DNA of 64,000 nucleotides from Gaiellaceae bacterium (GCA_035652255.1 DASRED010000047.1:3695-67694); one strand, 5' to 3'; positions 5,429 to 43,635 are shown, numbered from the stretch's first letter. The notes: a model not told the origin generated them from the letters alone. Numbers and translations are program-made.

Positions 5429-7315
5429 CTACGCCGGAACGGCGGCTTCGCGGTCGGCGCGCAATTCCGCTGCGAACGCGTCGACCACCGCCGGGTCGAA
5501 CTGCGTCCCGGCGCAACGCTCGAGCTCGGCGAGCGCCTCCTCCTCCGTGCGCGGATCGCGGTGCGCGCGCGTCGGATCCTGGTCGGAGGTCATCGCGTCG
5601 AACGCGTCGGCGACGAAGATGATCCGGGCGCCGAGCGGGATCTGCTCTCCCGCGAGCCCGTTCGGGTAGCCGGTGCCGTCCCAGCGCTCGTGGTGGTGGA
5701 GCACCCACTCGGCGACCGGCTCGACGCCGAGGCTCTCGAGCATCCGGAAGCCGATCTGGGGATGTCGCTCGAGGACGAGCCGCTCGCCGTCGCTGAGCGC
5801 CGTCGGCTTGCGGAGCAGTTCCTCGGGGATCGCGAGCTTGCCGAGGTCGTGGAGGCTTCCCGCGAGCCGCGTCAGCTCGACGGTCGGCTCGTCGGCGCCG
5901 AGACGCCGCGCGATCTTCGCTGCGTAGTCGCCGACCCGCTGCGAGTGGCGGCCCGTGTAGACGTCGCGCGCGTCGACGGCCTGCGCGAGGCTCTCCGCCG
6001 CGCGGTAGCGTGCCGCACGGTCGGGGCTGTCCGCGAGCTGCTCGAGGTTCGCGCGGAGGATCGACTCGGCCGCGTACGCCCGCACGCGGTTCTTGCCGTC
6101 CTCCTTCGCCCAGTAGAGGGCGCTGTCGGCGAGGCGGATGAGCTCATCGCGGCCGATGCCCTGCATCGGGAAGGTCGCGACGCCGGCGCTGACCGTCACC
6201 GGCCCGACGCCGTCGATCTGCACCGCTGCGATCCGCTCCACGATCGAGCGCGCCACCGCCGTCGCGGCCCGCTCGTCGTGCTCGGGAAGGAGCACCGCGA
6301 ACTCGTCGCCGCCGAGCCGGAACGCCTCGCCGCCCTGTCGCAGGCGCGAGGCGATGTGCCCGAGCACCTTGTCGCCGACCGGATGACCGTGGCGGTCGTT
6401 GATCGACTTGAGGTCGTCGAGGTCGACGAGGCAGAGCGCGACGGAGGTGCCCTTGTGCTCGGCGCCGTCGAGCTCGCGCTGCAGCCGCTCGTGGAAGCTG
6501 CGGTGGTTGCCGAGGCCCGTGAGGGGGTCGGTGAGCGCGAGGCGCATCGCCTGCAGGGCCTTGTGCGTCGAGCGCTGGTAGAGCGCGATCGCGAGCAGTG
6601 GGCCGACGAGCGCGACGGACAACGCCGGCGCGCGCTGCCAGAGGACGACGAGGATCAGCGCCGCCGACGACATGAGCGCGAACGGCGGCGTCGTTTGGAC
6701 GGCGTTCTCCCAGATGACCTTGTGGAACGCGCGCCCGGAGTCCGCCGAGAGGACGCTGCTGATGAGGACGAGCGTGACGACCCAGTAGTAGACGAGCGCC
6801 CCGACGACGACTCGCGCCACGAGGATCCCGACCGAGCCGCCGTGGAGATGGTCGATGACGACGCCCGCGGCGAGCGCCGAGAGCGCGAACATCGAGCTGT
6901 TGTACGAGACCCGGACGAGCGGGCGCCCGCCGATCAGCTGGGCGATGCCGGGCCCGAGGGAGACGATCACCACGGCCGCCGGCCAGCCGACCAGGAAGAG
7001 CGAGGCGAGCGAGAAGACGAAGCCGAGCGTGACGCCGCCCGCGCCCATCCCTTCGACGGGCACCGGGAAGCGCTCGGCGACGGCGATGGCGACGAAGAGG
7101 CTGACGACCGCTCCGAAGTGCGCCCAGCTGTGTGCCTGGACGGCGTAGCGGTATGCGGCCCAACCAACGGCGAAGACCCCCGCGGCAATCACGGGGGTCA
7201 CCACCATCAGAACCTTGCGCGGGATCGCAGCGGGTGGATTCACCGCTGCTCCCTTGACGGCGTTAGCGCCGTCCGGCCGGATCCGGATGCCGGGTACTGC
7301 GAGCCGCCCACTCAT
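5429..7315 (-). CDS. membrane-anchored diguanylate cyclase (GGDEF) fused to an HD-GYP phosphodiesterase domain
   Basis: 628 aa. N-terminal multi-TM region, intact RLGGDEFAVLL, then HD-GYP signatures HDLGKLAIP and HHHERWDGTGYP. Exact start uncertain. Confidence 0.85.
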   Translation of the reverse strand: MSGRLAVPGIRIRPDGANAVKGAAVNPPAAIPRKVLMVVTPVIAAGVFAVGWAAYRYAVQAHSWAHFGAVVSLFVAIAVAERFPVPVEGMGAGGVTLGFVFSLASLFLVGWPAAVVIVSLGPGIAQLIGGRPLVRVSYNSSMFALSALAAGVVIDHLHGGSVGILVARVVVGALVYYWVVTLVLISSVLSADSGRAFHKVIWENAVQTTPPFALMSSAALILVVLWQRAPALSVALVGPLLAIALYQRSTHKALQAMRLALTDPLTGLGNHRSFHERLQRELDGAEHKGTSVALCLVDLDDLKSINDRHGHPVGDKVLGHIASRLRQGGEAFRLGGDEFAVLLPEHDERAATAVARSIVERIAAVQIDGVGPVTVSAGVATFPMQGIGRDELIRLADSALYWAKEDGKNRVRAYAAESILRANLEQLADSPDRAARYRAAESLAQAVDARDVYTGRHSQRVGDYAAKIARRLGADEPTVELTRLAGSLHDLGKLAIPEELLRKPTALSDGERLVLERHPQIGFRMLESLGVEPVAEWVLHHHERWDGTGYPNGLAGEQIPLGARIIFVADAFDAMTSDQDPTRAHRDPRTEEEALAELERCAGTQFDPAVVDAFAAELRADREAAVPA

Positions 7316-9774: not shown

Positions 9775-11556
9775 ATGTTCGACAAGGTTCTCGTCGCCAA
9801 TAGAGGGGAGATCGCGATCCGCGTCTTCCGGACGCTGCGCGAGCTCGGGATCGGCGCGGTGGGCGTCTACTCGGAGGGCGATCGCGCCGCGCTCCACGTC
9901 GCGTACGCCGACGAGGCGTTTCTCCTCGGGCCGACTCCGGCGGCCGAGAGCTACCTCCACGTCGAGCGGATCCTCGCCGCCGCGCAGCGCTCCGGCGCCC
10001 AGGCGATCCACCCCGGCTACGGCTTCCTCGCCGAGAACGCAGGCTTCGCGCGCGCGGTCGAGGAGGCGGGGCTGGTCTGGATCGGCCCGCCGCCGAGCGC
10101 GATCGAGCTGATGGGGAACAAGACGGCCGCGCGGACGGCGATGCGGAACGCCGGCGTGCCGATCATCCCCGGCACGACGGATCCGGTGCGGTCGGTCGAC
10201 GAGCTGCTCGGGCTCGGCGAGGAGATCGGCTATCCGCTCCTGATCAAGGCGGCGGCGGGCGGCGGCGGCAAAGGGATGGAGGAGGTTCACTCGCCCGAGC
10301 AGGCCGAGAAGGCGTTCGAGACGGCGCAGCGGCAGGGCCAGTCGTACTTCGCGAATCCGGACGTCTACGTCGAGAAGCTCATCGTCGACCCGCGCCACGT
10401 CGAGGTGCAGGTGCTCGCGGACGCGCATGGCAACGTCATCCACCTCGGCGAGCGCGACTGCACGATGCAGCGCCGCCACCAGAAGCTGATCGAGGAGACG
10501 CCGTCGCCGGCGGTCAGCCCCGAGCTGCGGGAGCGGATCGGCTCGATCGGTGTCGAGGCGGCGCGGGCGTGCGGCTACCGCTCGGCCGGGACGATCGAGG
10601 GGCTCCTGACGCGCGACGGCGAGTACTTCTTCATGGAGATGAACACGCGCATCCAGGTCGAGCACACGGTGACGGAGATGGTCACGGGGCTCGATCTCGT
10701 CTGCGAGCAGATCCGGGTGGCGCTCGGCGAGCCGCTGACGCTGCGCCAGGAGGACGTCGAGCTGCGTGGGCATGCGATCGAGTACCGGATCAACGCCGAG
10801 GACACGAGCCGCGGCTTCCTTCCCGCGCCGGCGCCGGTCACCGGCTACCGCGAGCCGGCGGGGCCGGGGGTGCGTGTCGACTCCGGCGTCGCCGCGGGCT
10901 ACGAGGTCTCCGGCTCCTACGACCCGATGATCGCGAAGCTCATCGTCCACGGCGTCGACCGCGAGCACGCCCGCCGGCGGATGCTGCGCGCGCTCGACGA
11001 GTTCTGGATCGAGGGGCCGAAGACGCTCGTCGGCTTTCACAAGGCGCTTCTCTCGCATCCGTGCTTCATCGCCGGAGAGACGTGCCACGGCATCGTCGAG
11101 TCGGAGGAGCTGGCAGCGCAGTCCGCGGAGTTCGACGGCGGCGCCGCGATCGCCCGTCCAAGTGACAACTTGTCACTAAGTTCGACAGGGCCGGTTCGGA
11201 CGGTCGAGCGCGTCCGGACGGTCGAGGTCGACGGGCGGCGGTTCGAGGTGCGGCTCTCCGAGCCGGAGCCCGAGTGGCGCGCGCTCGCGGAGCGGCGGCG
11301 GGAGCGCGTCCACGCGGCGGGCGCCGGCGGCTCGGGCCAGGACGCGGTCGTCTCCCCGATGCAGGGCACGGTGCTCGCCGTGAGCGTCGCGGACGGCGAC
11401 GAGGTCGAGTCGGGACAGGTGCTCTGCATCGTCGAGGCGATGAAGATGGAGAACGAGGTCCACGCGCACCGCGACGGCACCGTGTCCCAGCTCTCGGTCG
11501 AGCCCGGCCAACCCGTCACAACGGGCCAGGTCATCTGCGTCATCAGTTCCGCGTGA
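9775..11556 (+). CDS. accA: acyl-CoA carboxylase alpha subunit (biotin carboxylase + biotin carboxyl carrier domain)
   Basis: 593 aa. MFDKVLVANRGEIAIRV, ATP-grasp AAAGGGGKGM, and the C-terminal biotinylation motif EAMKMENE. Confidence 0.92.
   Translation: MFDKVLVANRGEIAIRVFRTLRELGIGAVGVYSEGDRAALHVAYADEAFLLGPTPAAESYLHVERILAAAQRSGAQAIHPGYGFLAENAGFARAVEEAGLVWIGPPPSAIELMGNKTAARTAMRNAGVPIIPGTTDPVRSVDELLGLGEEIGYPLLIKAAAGGGGKGMEEVHSPEQAEKAFETAQRQGQSYFANPDVYVEKLIVDPRHVEVQVLADAHGNVIHLGERDCTMQRRHQKLIEETPSPAVSPELRERIGSIGVEAARACGYRSAGTIEGLLTRDGEYFFMEMNTRIQVEHTVTEMVTGLDLVCEQIRVALGEPLTLRQEDVELRGHAIEYRINAEDTSRGFLPAPAPVTGYREPAGPGVRVDSGVAAGYEVSGSYDPMIAKLIVHGVDREHARRRMLRALDEFWIEGPKTLVGFHKALLSHPCFIAGETCHGIVESEELAAQSAEFDGGAAIARPSDNLSLSSTGPVRTVERVRTVEVDGRRFEVRLSEPEPEWRALAERRRERVHAAGAGGSGQDAVVSPMQGTVLAVSVADGDEVESGQVLCIVEAMKMENEVHAHRDGTVSQLSVEPGQPVTTGQVICVISSA
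11161..11191. repeat. AT-rich palindromic element, copy 1 (in-frame inside the accA linker)
   Basis: AGTGACAACTTGTCACTAAGTTCGACAGGGC. This 31-mer recurs at 42193..42223 with 2 mismatches. The core AGTGACAA-C-TTGTCACT is a perfect palindrome. Confidence 0.85.
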
Positions 11557-14261: not shown

Positions 14262-14317
14262 CTCGCTCGCTCCTCGCCGAAGCGGCTTGGTGAGACATCC
14301 GGACGTGTCCCCGGCGG

Positions 14318-14346
14318 CCATGTCCGGTGCCAGGCACCGGACATGG
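14318..14346. repeat. REP-like perfect hairpin 1
   Basis: CCATGTCCGGTGCC-A-GGCACCGGACATGG, 14-nt perfect arms. The core GTCCGGTGCCAGGCACCGGAC is repeated at 14405..14437. Confidence 0.85.
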
Positions 14347-14404
14347 CCAATTCGGCCGCCGTGCGAGGCGGCGAGACGGGATGCGGGCCGGCGGTGTCCG
14401 CGAC

Positions 14405-14437
14405 GGACACGTCCGGTGCCAGGCACCGGACGTGTCC
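14405..14437. repeat. REP-like perfect hairpin 2
   Basis: GGACACGTCCGGTGCC-A-GGCACCGGACGTGTCC, 16-nt perfect arms. Same core as hairpin 1. Confidence 0.85.
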
Positions 14438-41768: not shown

Positions 41769-43376
41769 CTACGGCTCCCGCTCGTGCGCGTCGAACTGCT
41801 CGGTGAACTGCTGGACGAAGTCCTCCTCGCTCGCGGGCTCGTCTTCCACCGCGACGGCCGTTTCACGCGCCTCGCCGAGCTCGAAGGAGACCTCGAGCCG
41901 CCGGCCGGTGACGTCGTAGAGCGCGTCCGCGAGCAGGGTCGCGTTCTTCGGGTCGCGGGCGAGGTCGAGGTGGAACTGGGCGGTGGGTGGGAACTCGAGC
42001 GTCAGCGTGTCGCCGTGGAGGTCCGCCGGATGGGCCTCGCGCAGGAGCGACGCAGTCGGGATGCCGCCGCGCTCCTCGACCGCCGGCAGCACTGTCCGCG
42101 ACCACGCCTCCTGCAGCTGCTCGAGCTCGAGGTCGGGCGGCGCAACCTCGGCCGCGGGCGCCGCCGCGGGAACGGGCGCGCTCTCGTCACTTAGTGACAA
42201 CTTGTCACTAAGTTGGACGGGGCTAGGGGGGACAGCTCCGGCCCCCTGCTCGAGGCGCTCGAGGCGGAAGGCGACGGACTCGCGCGACAGGTCGGCGGCG
42301 GGGCGCGTCACCTTGACGAGGGCGAGCTCGAGCGGCAGGCGCGGATCGCCGCCCTGGCGCATGTCGTCGACCGCGACCGCGAGGAGATCGATCAGGCGGA
42401 GAACGGCCGCCTCGCCCATCTGCGCCGCCTGCCCGAGCAGCCGCTCGCGCGTTTCCTCCGTCACGGGCAGCGCCTCGGGCACCTCGCCGAGATGCTGCAC
42501 GAGCATCAGCTGGCGGAGGTGCTCGATCAGGTCGAGGACGAGGCGGCCGAGGTCGTGCCCGCGCTCGGAGAGCTCCTCGACGAACGTGAGCGCGCCGGCC
42601 GTGTCGCGGTCGATGACGAGGTTGCAGAGCGTGAAGAGCGCCTCCTCCTCGACCGTGCCGAGCAGCTCGAGGACGGCCTGCACCGTGATCGTGCTGCCGG
42701 TGGAGGAGGCGAGCTGGTCGAGTGTCGAGACCGCGTCACGGTACGCGCCCCGCGCGCCGCGCGCGACGAGCGCGAGGGCCTGATCGGGCACGTCGACTCC
42801 CTCGGCGTCGGCGACGTGCCGCAGGACGGTGACGAGATCCTGCAGGCGCGGGCGCTGGAAGACGAACGTCTGGCAGCGCGAACGGACCGTCGGGAGCACC
42901 TTCGAGAGATCCGTCGTGCAGAAGACGAAGACGAGATGCGGCGGCGGCTCCTCGATGAGCTTCAGGAGCGCGTTCCACGCTGCGTCCGTGAGCTGGTGCG
43001 CCTCGTCGAGGATGTAGACCTTGTAGCGCCCCTCGACCGGTTGGAGAACGACCCGGTCGCGGATCTCCCGGATGTCGTCGATGCCACGCTGCGAGGCGGC
43101 GTCCATCTCGACGACGTCGAGGGAGGTCCCGGCGGCGATCGCGGCGCAGGTATGGCACGTTCCGTCGGGCGTCGTGGTCGGGCCCTGCGCGCAGTTGAGG
43201 CACTTGGCGAGGATGCGCGCCATCGACGTCTTGCCGGTGCCGCGCGGGCCGGCGAAGAGGTACGCCTGCCGGAGGGCGTCGCTCGTGATCGCGTTCGACA
43301 GCGTCCTGACGACCGCCTCCTGGCCGACGACCTCCGCGAAGCTCTGGGGACGGTACTTCCGGTAGAGAGCGGCCAC
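41769..43376 (-). CDS. dnaX: DNA polymerase III subunits gamma/tau
   Basis: GTG start (VAALYRKYRPQSFAEVVGQ) inside track ORF 41769..43556. Walker A GPRGTGKTS, ILDEAHQL, and a Cys-rich zinc module CLNCAQGPTTTPDGTCHTC. Confidence 0.9.
   Translation of the reverse strand: MAALYRKYRPQSFAEVVGQEAVVRTLSNAITSDALRQAYLFAGPRGTGKTSMARILAKCLNCAQGPTTTPDGTCHTCAAIAAGTSLDVVEMDAASQRGIDDIREIRDRVVLQPVEGRYKVYILDEAHQLTDAAWNALLKLIEEPPPHLVFVFCTTDLSKVLPTVRSRCQTFVFQRPRLQDLVTVLRHVADAEGVDVPDQALALVARGARGAYRDAVSTLDQLASSTGSTITVQAVLELLGTVEEEALFTLCNLVIDRDTAGALTFVEELSERGHDLGRLVLDLIEHLRQLMLVQHLGEVPEALPVTEETRERLLGQAAQMGEAAVLRLIDLLAVAVDDMRQGGDPRLPLELALVKVTRPAADLSRESVAFRLERLEQGAGAVPPSPVQLSDKLSLSDESAPVPAAAPAAEVAPPDLELEQLQEAWSRTVLPAVEERGGIPTASLLREAHPADLHGDTLTLEFPPTAQFHLDLARDPKNATLLADALYDVTGRRLEVSFELGEARETAVAVEDEPASEEDFVQQFTEQFDAHEREP
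42189..42223. repeat. AT-rich palindromic element, copy 2 (in-frame inside the dnaX linker)
   Basis: ACTTAGTGACAA-C-TTGTCACTAAGT, perfect 12-nt arms, followed by TGGACGGGGC. Shares a 31-mer (2 mismatches) with 11161..11191. Confidence 0.85.
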
Positions 43377-43538
43377 CCGACGATTCAAGCAGATCGTCGA
43401 TCGACCCTCCGCCGCCGCGACCGACCCGAGCGGGCGCGGCACACAGACGCACGCCGTCAGCACGCGAGCGGCGCAAGCCGCTCGCAGACGAGCGAGCGGA
43501 AAGCGAAGCCGAAGGCGGAGCGGGCGGAGCGGGAAGAT

Positions 43539-43635
43539 GGGCCGGGCTTGCCGCACACGACCCAGGAACTACTTAGCGCTGCTTCCTCCCGGATCTGACG
43601 CGGTTCGCAGGCTGGGACTGCACGGAGCCCGACCC
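43539..43635 (-). ncRNA. ffs: signal recognition particle RNA (small 4.5S-type)
   Basis: The minus strand reads GGGUCGGGCUCCGUGCAGUCCCAGCCUGCGAACCGCGUCAGAUCCGGGAGGAAGCAGCGCUAAGUAGUUCCUGGGUCGUGUGCGGCAAGCCCGGCCC. The domain IV core GUCAGAUCC-GGGA-GGAAGCAGC matches the E. coli GUCAGGUCC-GGAA-GGAAGCAGC with a GNRA loop. The 5' and 3' ends pair. Conserved position upstream of dnaX. Ends are approximate. Confidence 0.75.

What the first reader, a model, noticed from the sequence alone, without database searches (positions are those of the whole stretch)
11161..11191. AT-rich perfect palindrome present in-frame inside two unrelated essential genes (accA copy)
The 31-mer AGTGACAACTTGTCACTAAGTT(C/G)GAC(A/G)GGGC occurs at 11161..11191 inside accA (+ strand gene) and at 42193..42223 inside dnaX (- strand gene). 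Both copies have the same absolute orientation. The core is a perfect palindrome, and it stands out as AT-rich against very GC-rich coding DNA. It contains TAG, TGA and TAA in two of the three frames on each strand. In both genes it sits in the single open frame, giving SDNLSLS in AccA and SDKLSLS in DnaX. In AccA it falls in the linker between the biotin carboxylase and BCCP domains. The shared asymmetric flank (AGTTsGACrGGGC) argues for copies of one element rather than two independent operator sites. The closest precedent I know is Rickettsia palindromic elements, which insert in-frame into ORFs. Alternatively it could be a protein-binding or recombination site tolerated only in linkers.
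Basis: seen in the sequence. Interest (0 to 1): 0.62.

Follow-up and report, generated by a model that had tools for sequence, protein, structure and literature searches.

The report
In-frame REP-like hairpin repeats, Gaiellaceae
The palindrome inside accA and dnaX is real and is one copy of a short hairpin repeat scattered through the genomes of the soil actinobacterial family Gaiellaceae. It usually sits just after genes, but about 40% of copies lie in-frame inside genes, a behaviour already described for REP and Rickettsia palindromic elements.

Summary
The 17-mer AGTGACAACTTGTCACT occurs twice in the window, with zero copies expected by chance. Both copies lie in-frame in inter-domain linkers, one in AccA and one in DnaX.

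It is not a private feature of these two genes. It belongs to a roughly 25-bp stem-loop repeat family: stem ..CCAAGTGACA, 3-nt loop, stem TGTCACTTGG.. This family is greatly enriched in Gaiellaceae MAGs, with up to 8-9 copies per MAG found in a truncated scan.

Of 60 catalogued copies:
- 25 lie in coding sequence. 23 of these use the single frame that reads SD(N/K)LSL.
- 32 are intergenic, almost all between convergent or same-direction genes and only 1 between divergent genes. Several supply the stop codon of the adjacent gene.

Orthologue comparisons show clean presence/absence insertions of +21 bp. The accA copy is ancient and keeps its pairing through compensated double substitutions. New copies carry their own genome's sequence variant.

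The stems covary strongly, but there is no G:U bias on the sense strand. There is no GTAG or CGTC tag, and no transposase lies next to any copy.

Best reading: an untagged REP-like element with in-frame, RPE-like intragenic copies. This is a new member of a known kind.

The parts
11152..11191 (.). accA copy of the hairpin repeat. The core AGTGACAA-C-TTGTCACT is at 11161-11177. A possible outer stem pairs GCCCGTC (11152-11158) with GACAGGGC (11184-11191). The copy is read in frame as P-SDNLSL-SSTG.
   Evidence: Orthologous copies with compensated stem changes are shown.
42185..42219 (.). dnaX copy of the hairpin repeat. It is a perfect 12+1+12 palindrome, ACTTAGTGACAA-C-TTGTCACTAAGT, at 42189-42213. 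An outer pair joins CGTC (42185-42188) with GACG (42216-42219). On the minus strand it is read as QL-SDKLSL-SDE.
   Evidence: The RNA fold has z = -5.0 on the sense strand.
9775..11556 (+). Host gene 1: acyl-CoA carboxylase alpha subunit (biotin carboxylase plus BCCP), 593 aa. The element lies in the BC-BCCP linker.
41769..43376 (-). Host gene 2: dnaX (DNA polymerase III gamma/tau), 535 aa. The element lies in the linker between domain III and the C-terminal tau domain.
   Evidence: The SRP RNA at 43537-43634 (-) lies upstream, which supports the start at 43376.

Best explanation
The two palindromes belong to a short (about 25 bp) dispersed stem-loop repeat family specific to Gaiellaceae. The family behaves like REP elements (repetitive extragenic palindromes). 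Its consensus is ..SCCAAGTGACA-NNN-TGTCACTTGGS.. : a conserved 7-8 bp inner stem, a variable 3-nt loop, and a variable but complementary outer stem of 3-5 bp.

Shown:
- Copies arise by insertion of about 18-21 bp.
- Most copies sit at the 3' ends of genes, between convergent or same-direction genes, and some supply the stop codon.
- The element has stop codons in the other frames. Inside genes, almost only copies in the frame AGT GAC AAN TTG TCA CTN (SD[N/K]LSL) are found, in linkers or apparent surface loops of ordinary and essential proteins.
- Pairing of the two arms is kept over long times by compensated double substitutions.
- New copies carry the sequence variant of their own genome.

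Inferred:
- Spread is by copy-and-paste from resident copies, through a sequence-specific enzyme acting on the DNA hairpin. This enzyme has not been identified. A REP-associated tyrosine transposase (RAYT) of the Y1 class is one possibility, as is some other host enzyme.
- Intergenic copies probably act as 3'-end hairpins of transcripts.
- The accA and dnaX copies are tolerated passengers, each encoding a 6-residue hydrophilic insert, rather than parts of the enzymes' function.
For: Enrichment:
- My arithmetic for 70% GC DNA gives about 3e-5 copies expected per 3-Mb genome.

Placement (using my own codon-based gene caller):
- 25 of 60 copies are in coding sequence: 23 in the SD[NK]LSL frame, 2 in the VT[ST]CH frame and 0 in the TGA frame.
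- Of 32 intergenic copies, 14 lie between convergent genes, 17 between tandem genes and 1 between divergent genes.
- Gene stop codons fall inside the element in L007, L051, L052, L071 and L216.
- Doublets 57-86 bp apart lie between convergent genes.

Insertion polymorphism:
- L061 has a net +21 bp relative to its orthologue L106, inside a conserved biotin carboxylase domain.
- L216 2408-2426 is present in one lineage only.
- About 12 of 120 AccA orthologues and 85 of 120 DnaX orthologues lack the element.

Pairing conserved:
- The accA site reads GTGACAA/TTGTCAC, GTGACAC/GTGTCAC, GTAACAC/GTGTTAC or GTAACAG/CTGTTAC in different orthologues.
- Peptide covariation in AccA: D-S 15, N-L 74, against D-L 2 and N-S 10.
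- Across 59 copies, 82% of cells are paired. The covariation score is 0.215, against 0.112 for shuffles (0 of 500 reach it) and 0.06-0.10 for slid controls.
- Outer stem positions 2-5 pair far more often than shuffled partners do.

Genome-specific variants:
- Both window copies share GTGACAA..CTAAGTT.
- In contig Ga0466944_0000034, the accA copy, the dnaX copy and a new intergenic copy all have the GTAACAC type.

Literature:
- REPs sit between convergent and unidirectional ORFs, supply stop codons, and occur inside genes, notably replication and repair genes including DNA polymerase I (PMC3733652).
- Here the hosts include dnaX and polA.
Against: - No GTAG or CGTC terminal tag is present.
- No RAYT or other transposase was found next to any copy.
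- Copy number looks low for a REP family, in the range of several to tens per genome. An intragenic share near 40% is far above that of classical REPs.
- G:U and A:C mismatches are equally frequent on the sense strand (16 versus 19). This gives no support for an RNA-level role.
- The inner stem sequence is highly conserved across species, which also fits a protein-binding site.
- The catalogue was seeded with an exact 17-mer. It is therefore biased towards one sequence variant.
Confidence: 0.7

Rival explanations
1. The palindrome is the double-stranded binding site of a sequence-specific dimeric protein, such as a chromosome-organising factor or global regulator comparable to parS, Noc-binding sites or matS. 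Sites are kept by selection wherever they fall, including inside genes.
For: - The inner half-site AAGTGACA is nearly invariant across species.
- Most copies are palindromic right up to a single central base.
- Copy number per genome appears low.
- Copies within one genome share derived variants, as expected if sites co-evolve with one protein.
- There is no G:U strand bias.
- From my own knowledge, matS (GTGACRNYGTCAC) has the same GTGAC half-site.
Against: - The two arms covary at the variable outer positions. A dimer reading two independent half-sites does not predict this.
- Loops are not always palindromic: CAT, CTT and AAG occur.
- Copies arise as insertions of about 20 bp, not by point mutation in place.
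- Intergenic copies avoid divergent promoter regions (1 of 32) and hug gene 3' ends.
- The spacing differs from matS, and MatP is not known outside gamma-proteobacteria.
Confidence: 0.15
2. The accA and dnaX copies are functional mRNA hairpins. They might pause ribosomes at domain boundaries. In dnaX the hairpin might promote a -1 shift or termination that yields a short gamma-like product: the hairpin sits at the gamma/tau boundary, the other frames hold TAG and TGA, and a C CCC CCT run lies upstream.
For: - Both copies lie exactly in inter-domain linkers.
- The dnaX hairpin is very stable on the sense strand (-21 kcal/mol, z = -5.0).
- The accA copy is kept with compensated changes across the family.
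- The -1 frame ends at once in TAG, both at the C-run and inside the hairpin (sequence shown).
Against: - 85 of 120 DnaX orthologues lack the element. Others carry an unrelated hairpin at a slightly different place, and the C-run is not conserved.
- The same element occurs in many unrelated genes and between genes.
- There is no excess of G:U over A:C on the sense strand.
Confidence: 0.07
3. The match is a coincidence, or it reflects selection on the peptide SD(N/K)LSL.
For: None beyond the fact that linkers tolerate many sequences.
Against: - Zero matches are expected by chance.
- The peptide differs (N versus K) according to the strand on which the element is read.
- The codons used (AGT, TTG, TCA, CTA) are rare in a genome with GC3 above 0.9.
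- Orthologous peptides change in step with base pairing.
Confidence: 0.01

Closest known systems
REP elements (repetitive extragenic palindromes), including the GTAG- and CGTC-tagged superfamilies of Di Nocera et al. 2013 (PMC3733652)
   Same: - A short (20-40 bp) stem-loop repeat dispersed through the genome.
- Located between convergent and same-direction genes, close to 3' ends, and sometimes supplying the stop codon.
- Singletons and doublets both occur.
- Several families coexist in one genome.
- Some copies lie in-frame inside genes, notably replication and repair genes (here dnaX and polA).
- Family variants are species-specific.
   Different: - No GTAG or CGTC tag.
- A 3-nt loop rather than 4-5 nt.
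- Apparently low copy number.
- About 40% of copies are intragenic.
- No RAYT gene found so far.
- No G:T excess on the transcribed strand.
- The host phylum, Actinomycetota, is not among those listed in that survey.
Rickettsia palindromic elements (RPE)
   Same: - Palindromic repeats inserted in-frame into many unrelated genes, including essential ones.
- Presence/absence varies between orthologues.
- Copies are tolerated as extra peptide segments.
   Different: - RPE-1 is 100-150 bp and adds 30-50 residues, whereas this element adds 6-7 residues.
- The sequence is unrelated and the phylum is different.
- Most copies here are intergenic.
HIP1 (highly iterated palindrome, GCGATCGC) of cyanobacteria
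   Same: A short palindrome found in both coding and non-coding DNA, maintained at the DNA level (comparison from my own knowledge).
   Different: HIP1 is 8 bp, occurs thousands of times per genome, is not a stem-loop with a covarying outer stem, and does not arise by insertion.

Membership tests
REP elements (general definition) | Short (20-40 bp) imperfect palindrome able to form a stem-loop | tested here: met
   Across 59 copies there is an 11-13 bp stem and a 3-nt loop, with 82% of cells paired and strong covariation. Folds are shown.
REP elements (general definition) | Many dispersed copies per genome | tested here: inconclusive
   A truncated scan found 8-9 copies in single MAGs and 3 exact 17-mers spread over a 3.4-Mb chromosome.
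REP elements (general definition) | Preferential location between convergent and unidirectional ORFs, near 3' ends | tested here: met
   Of the intergenic copies, 14 are between convergent genes, 17 between tandem genes and 1 between divergent genes. Several overlap stop codons.
GTAG- or CGTC-tagged REP superfamilies | Unpaired GTAG or CGTC (TGTC/CCTC) tetranucleotide at one end | tested here: not met
   GTAG is absent from all 120 flanks. CGTC, TGTC and CCTC are not enriched at any fixed offset, apart from the orthologous accA set.
REP/RAYT systems (REPINs) | A cognate RAYT (Y1 transposase) gene flanked by the repeats | not testable with these tools
   None was found among the neighbours of copies in the loci held.
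Rickettsia palindromic elements | In-frame insertion into ORFs, with orthologues that lack the insert | tested here: met
   L061 versus L106 shows +21 bp. AccA and DnaX orthologues exist with and without the insert. 23 of 25 coding copies are in one frame.
Rickettsia palindromic elements | Element of about 100-150 bp encoding 30-50 residues; sequence family of Rickettsia | tested here: not met
   The insert is 18-27 bp and encodes 6-9 residues. The hosts are Gaiellaceae.
MITEs | Terminal inverted repeats flanked by a direct target-site duplication; 50-500 bp | tested here: not met
   The flanks are inverted complements (CCA..TGG, CTT..AAG), not direct repeats. The length is about 25 bp.
Operator of a dimeric transcription factor | Location in promoter regions upstream of regulated genes | tested here: not met
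   Only 1 of 32 intergenic copies lies between divergent genes. 25 of 60 copies are inside genes.
dnaX programmed frameshift signal | Conserved slippery heptamer followed by a conserved stem-loop at the gamma/tau boundary | tested here: not met
   The hairpin is absent from 85 of 120 orthologues and the C-run is not conserved.

The most novel reading that the evidence does not exclude
The hairpins may be more than passengers. They could be cis-sites of a lineage-specific trans-acting factor that co-evolves with them, either a domesticated hairpin-binding transposase or another protein. On this reading, selection keeps them inside essential genes (accA, dnaX, polA, E2 subunits) across the whole family. 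They would act as functional intragenic DNA or RNA elements placed at domain boundaries, for example replication- or repair-linked sites or translational pause sites.
Probability: 0.15. Interest if true: 0.7.

Novelty: new member of a known kind. Interest (0 to 1): 0.42.

Why it matters
It extends REP/RPE-type palindromic repeats to Gaiellaceae, an abundant and almost uncultured soil actinobacterial family. This family shows an unusually high in-frame intragenic share.

One copy, in accA, is retained across the whole family with textbook compensatory changes, and new insertions carry each genome's own variant. That makes it a compact natural system for three questions:
- How short hairpin repeats spread without an obvious transposase.
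- Whether arm pairing is kept by selection or by template-switch repair.
- How proteins absorb 6-residue inserts.

There is also a practical point for annotation. These sites create lineage-specific indels, and sometimes new stop codons, in housekeeping marker genes of MAGs.

Tried and rejected
No census of the window's own genome and no search for RAYT genes was possible.
Close orthologues had to be fetched one at a time. One had no DNA available.
- Read laying on soil metagenome contigs confirmed that the sequence exists in the likely source run. It was otherwise uninformative.

Hypotheses tested and rejected:
- GTAG or CGTC tag: not present.
- RNA-strand signature, meaning G:U more frequent than A:C on the sense strand: not seen.
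- Link between the central base and replication direction or GC skew: none (p = 0.86). Orientation relative to the coding strand: N 14 versus K 7, not significant.
- A recurrent neighbouring gene or transposase: none. Copies about 600 bp apart flank a glutathione-dependent formaldehyde-activating (GFA) family gene and an uncharacterised small ORF, not a RAYT.
- Rfam: no family matches the hairpins.
- Viral contigs: only 12 hits, so no enrichment.
- Intrinsic terminator: no T-run follows the stems (sequences).
- The same 17-mer in Firmicutes, Bacteroidales and other groups is consistent with chance (about 140 hits expected in 596 Gb, by my arithmetic) plus unrelated operators. I did not count those hits as family members.

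Full report
**Observation**

The 17-mer AGTGACAACTTGTCACT is present exactly at 11161-11177 and 42193-42209, on the same strand. No match appeared in 100 shuffles, even with three mismatches allowed. The surrounding 31-mers differ at two positions.

Translation, my own codon-based gene calls and Pfam place both copies in-frame in real genes.
- The first is an acyl-CoA carboxylase alpha subunit, 9775-11556 (+). SDNLSL is at residues 463-468, between Biotin_carb_C and Biotin_lipoyl.
- The second is DnaX, 41769-43376 (-). SDKLSL is at residues 390-395, between domain III and the C-terminal tau domain.
- An SRP RNA at 43537-43634 (-) sits upstream of dnaX, as is usual.

The dnaX copy is a perfect 12+1+12 palindrome at 42189-42213. 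The accA copy has 8-nt arms.

**It is a family, and it belongs to Gaiellaceae**

AccA and DnaX homologues at 81-100% identity are all from Gaiellaceae. About 43 of these are Gaiellaceae, Gaiellales or related uncultured actinobacterial MAGs with about 70% GC.

Several loci come from the same MAG:
- DATKRA01 has 8 copies.
- DATMAP01 has 9.
- CAZUVW01 has 5.
- One complete 3.4-Mb chromosome has exact copies at 23 kb, 521 kb and 1.78 Mb.

For DNA of this composition I calculate about 3e-5 chance copies per genome. The hits in low-GC Firmicutes, Bacteroidales and other groups are about as many as chance predicts for 596 Gb. Some of them look like ordinary paired operators. I do not count them as family members.

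**Anatomy**

I aligned 59 non-identical copies. GTGACA and TGTCAC are invariant or nearly so, partly by construction because the search was seeded on them. They are flanked by A/T, then W, then C/T:G/A and C/G:G/C.

The middle three bases vary. ACT and AGT are commonest, and CAT, CTT and AAG also occur.

Beyond the core, the two flanks are complementary far more often than partner-shuffled flanks are, at outward positions 2-5 (0-9 of 2000 shuffles reach the observed value).

The pair-counting tool gives these figures:
- 82% of cells are paired.
- 8 of 13 pairs show changes on both sides.
- The covariation score is 0.215, against 0.112 for shuffles (0 of 500 reach it) and 0.06-0.10 for slid partners.

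The unit is therefore a stem-loop of about 25 bp with an 11-13 bp stem, not merely a 17-bp palindrome.

**Where copies sit**

I used a simple codon-likelihood gene caller. It reproduces accA exactly and picks a dnaX start at 43376, downstream of the SRP RNA. With it I classified 60 copies.
- 25 lie in coding sequence. 23 are in the frame AGT GAC AAN TTG TCA CTN (SD[N/K]LSL), 2 are in the VT[ST]CH frame, and none is in the frame containing TGA.
- 32 are intergenic. 14 lie between convergent genes, 17 between tandem genes and only 1 between divergent genes.
- 3 could not be classified.

In L007, L051 (both convergent genes), L052, L071 and L216, the gene's stop codon lies inside the element. Doublets 57-86 bp apart sit between convergent metabolic genes, one hairpin at each gene end.

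The host proteins are ordinary and often essential: DNA polymerase I, DnaX, AccA and other biotin carboxylases, E2 acyltransferase linkers, a Mur ligase, SelA, ETF-alpha, a cyclopropane-fatty-acid synthase, RACo, and a GT4-PHP protein. About half the coding copies fall between Pfam domains or at protein ends. The rest lie within domain envelopes.

**Insertion, age and maintenance**

Two orthologous biotin carboxylase genes with about 80% nucleotide identity differ by a clean net +21 bp. L061 233-255 carries the element where L106 has only GGA, and this is inside a conserved domain.

In contig Ga0466944_0000034, a copy at the 3' end of the CDP-alcohol phosphatidyltransferase gene (L216 2408-2426) is absent from six related loci, including the window. 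It supplies a new TAA stop.

The accA copy, by contrast, is old. About 100 of 120 orthologues carry a hexapeptide at that position, and about 12 are 4-6 residues shorter. More distant orthologues (76% identity or less) lack it.

The DNA at the accA site reads as follows in different lineages:
- GTGACAA-C-TTGTCAC in the window.
- GTGACAC-G-GTGTCAC.
- GTAACAC-T-GTGTTAC.
- GTAACAG-T-CTGTTAC.

This amounts to at least three fully compensated double changes.

At the peptide level, D pairs with S and N pairs with L, corresponding to G:C and A:T. These pairings occur in 89 of 101 AccA orthologues that carry the motif. A similar association holds in DnaX.

The DnaX copy is patchy, with 35 of 120 orthologues carrying it. 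Some lineages instead carry, in-frame and nearby, a member of a second hairpin family: GTCCCGGTACC-A-GGTACCGGGAC at L200 11153-11175. The window has intergenic relatives of that second family at 14316-14348 and 14405-14437.

**Copies within one genome resemble each other**

The window's two copies share the core type and the derived flank CTAAGTT. Relatives have CAAGG or CTGGG at that flank.

In Ga0466944_0000034, the accA copy, the dnaX copy and the new intergenic copy all have the GTAACAC/GTGTTAC type.

MAG-specific flank flavours are also visible: CTTA in DATKRA01 and CCAA in DATMAP01.

With only two or three informative genomes this is suggestive rather than proven. It fits new copies being made from resident ones. 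It also fits co-evolution with a sequence-specific factor.

**Mechanism: what is shown and what is inferred**

Shown:
- Copies arise as insertions.
- They sit mainly at gene 3' ends.
- Only in-frame copies are found inside genes.
- Arm pairing is conserved.
- Variants are genome-specific.

Not shown: how copies spread, and what they do.

I found no transposase or RAYT next to any copy. There is no GTAG or CGTC tag, no Rfam match and no T-run after the stems.

G:U and A:C mismatches are equally common on the sense strand (16 versus 19). The pairing constraint therefore looks symmetric at the DNA level. It could reflect recognition of a DNA hairpin, or palindrome 'correction' by intrastrand template switching, rather than selection on the mRNA.

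My best account is a REP-like element that is copied by an unidentified hairpin-specific activity. Intergenic copies probably serve as 3' hairpins. The accA and dnaX copies are tolerated passengers.

**Comparison with what is known**

Di Nocera et al. (PMC3733652) describe REPs as follows:
- They are 20-40 bp stem-loops.
- They are concentrated between convergent and unidirectional ORFs.
- They often provide stop codons.
- Rickettsia RPE-4 and RPE-6 are classed as CGTC REPs.
- CGTC REPs lack a dedicated transposase.

The present family matches this behaviour closely. It differs in lacking a tag, having a triloop, low apparent copy number, a very high intragenic share and an actinobacterial host.

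It fails the size criterion for RPE-1 and the criteria for MITEs. It also fails the placement and independence expectations for a transcription-factor operator.

A dnaX frameshift role is unlikely, because neither the hairpin nor the upstream C-run is conserved.

**Verdict**

The element is a new member of a known kind.

Its most interesting features are the family-wide retention of an intragenic hairpin through compensatory change, and the hint that new copies inherit their genome's own variant.

Two limits apply:
- The catalogue was seeded on one exact 17-mer.

Noticed in passing
window 14316-14348 and 14405-14437; L200 11153-11175; L202 12059-12085: A second REP-like hairpin family with core GTCCGGTGCC-A-GGCACCGGAC and variable complementary outer arms. 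Two copies lie 58 nt apart upstream of sucC in the window. A compensated variant (GTCCCGGTACC-A-GGTACCGGGAC) sits in-frame in the DnaX linker of another Gaiellaceae genome, read as PVPGTG. Another copy lies near recR in L202.
   Followed up: partly
L061 122-142 versus L106 6941-6963: At the position where L106 carries the element (in the LVTSCH frame, with no length change relative to the window's AccA), its orthologue L061 carries a different near-perfect palindrome, CTTGCAACAG-A-CTGTTACAAG. This resembles the GTAACAG variant seen in accA of other lineages.
   Followed up: partly
window 43537-43634 (-): Bacterial small SRP RNA (66 bits) immediately upstream of dnaX. The longest dnaX ORF (to 43556) would overlap it, so the true start is probably 43376.
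   Followed up: yes
L085 765-793, L112 4521-4551, L011 about 6386-6428 (Streptomyces): Perfect palindromes of 27-31 bp built on the same 17-mer (for example TTTGAAAGTGACAACTTGTCACTTTCAAA). They lie within or just upstream of a conserved gene whose L112 member has an Mrr_cat restriction-endonuclease domain, and are read in-frame as ESDNLSLSK. This is probably a separate phenomenon, such as an operator inside a mobile or defence gene.
   Followed up: no
L028, L032, L035, L062, L070, L110, L113 (Enterococcus, Vagococcus, Tetragenococcus): The same 17-mer occurs as one of two closely spaced similar palindromes in AT-rich intergenic DNA. This looks like a paired operator of an unidentified repressor and is unrelated to the Gaiellaceae repeat.
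   Followed up: no
L117, L119, L123, L126, L129, L141 (AccA linker of more distant actinobacterial orthologues): A different conserved linker motif, about (Q)LSHxxTTxxxxSDG, occupies the same BC-BCCP linker region. In L129 the DNA holds a short inverted repeat, TTGTC..GACAA. It was not examined further.
   Followed up: no
window 42214-42236 (dnaX coding strand upstream of the hairpin): A run GTC CCC CCT AGC lies about 5 nt before the base of the extended hairpin. A -1 shift there would read TAG at once and end the protein after domain III. The run is not conserved in orthologues, so it is probably coincidental.
   Followed up: partly
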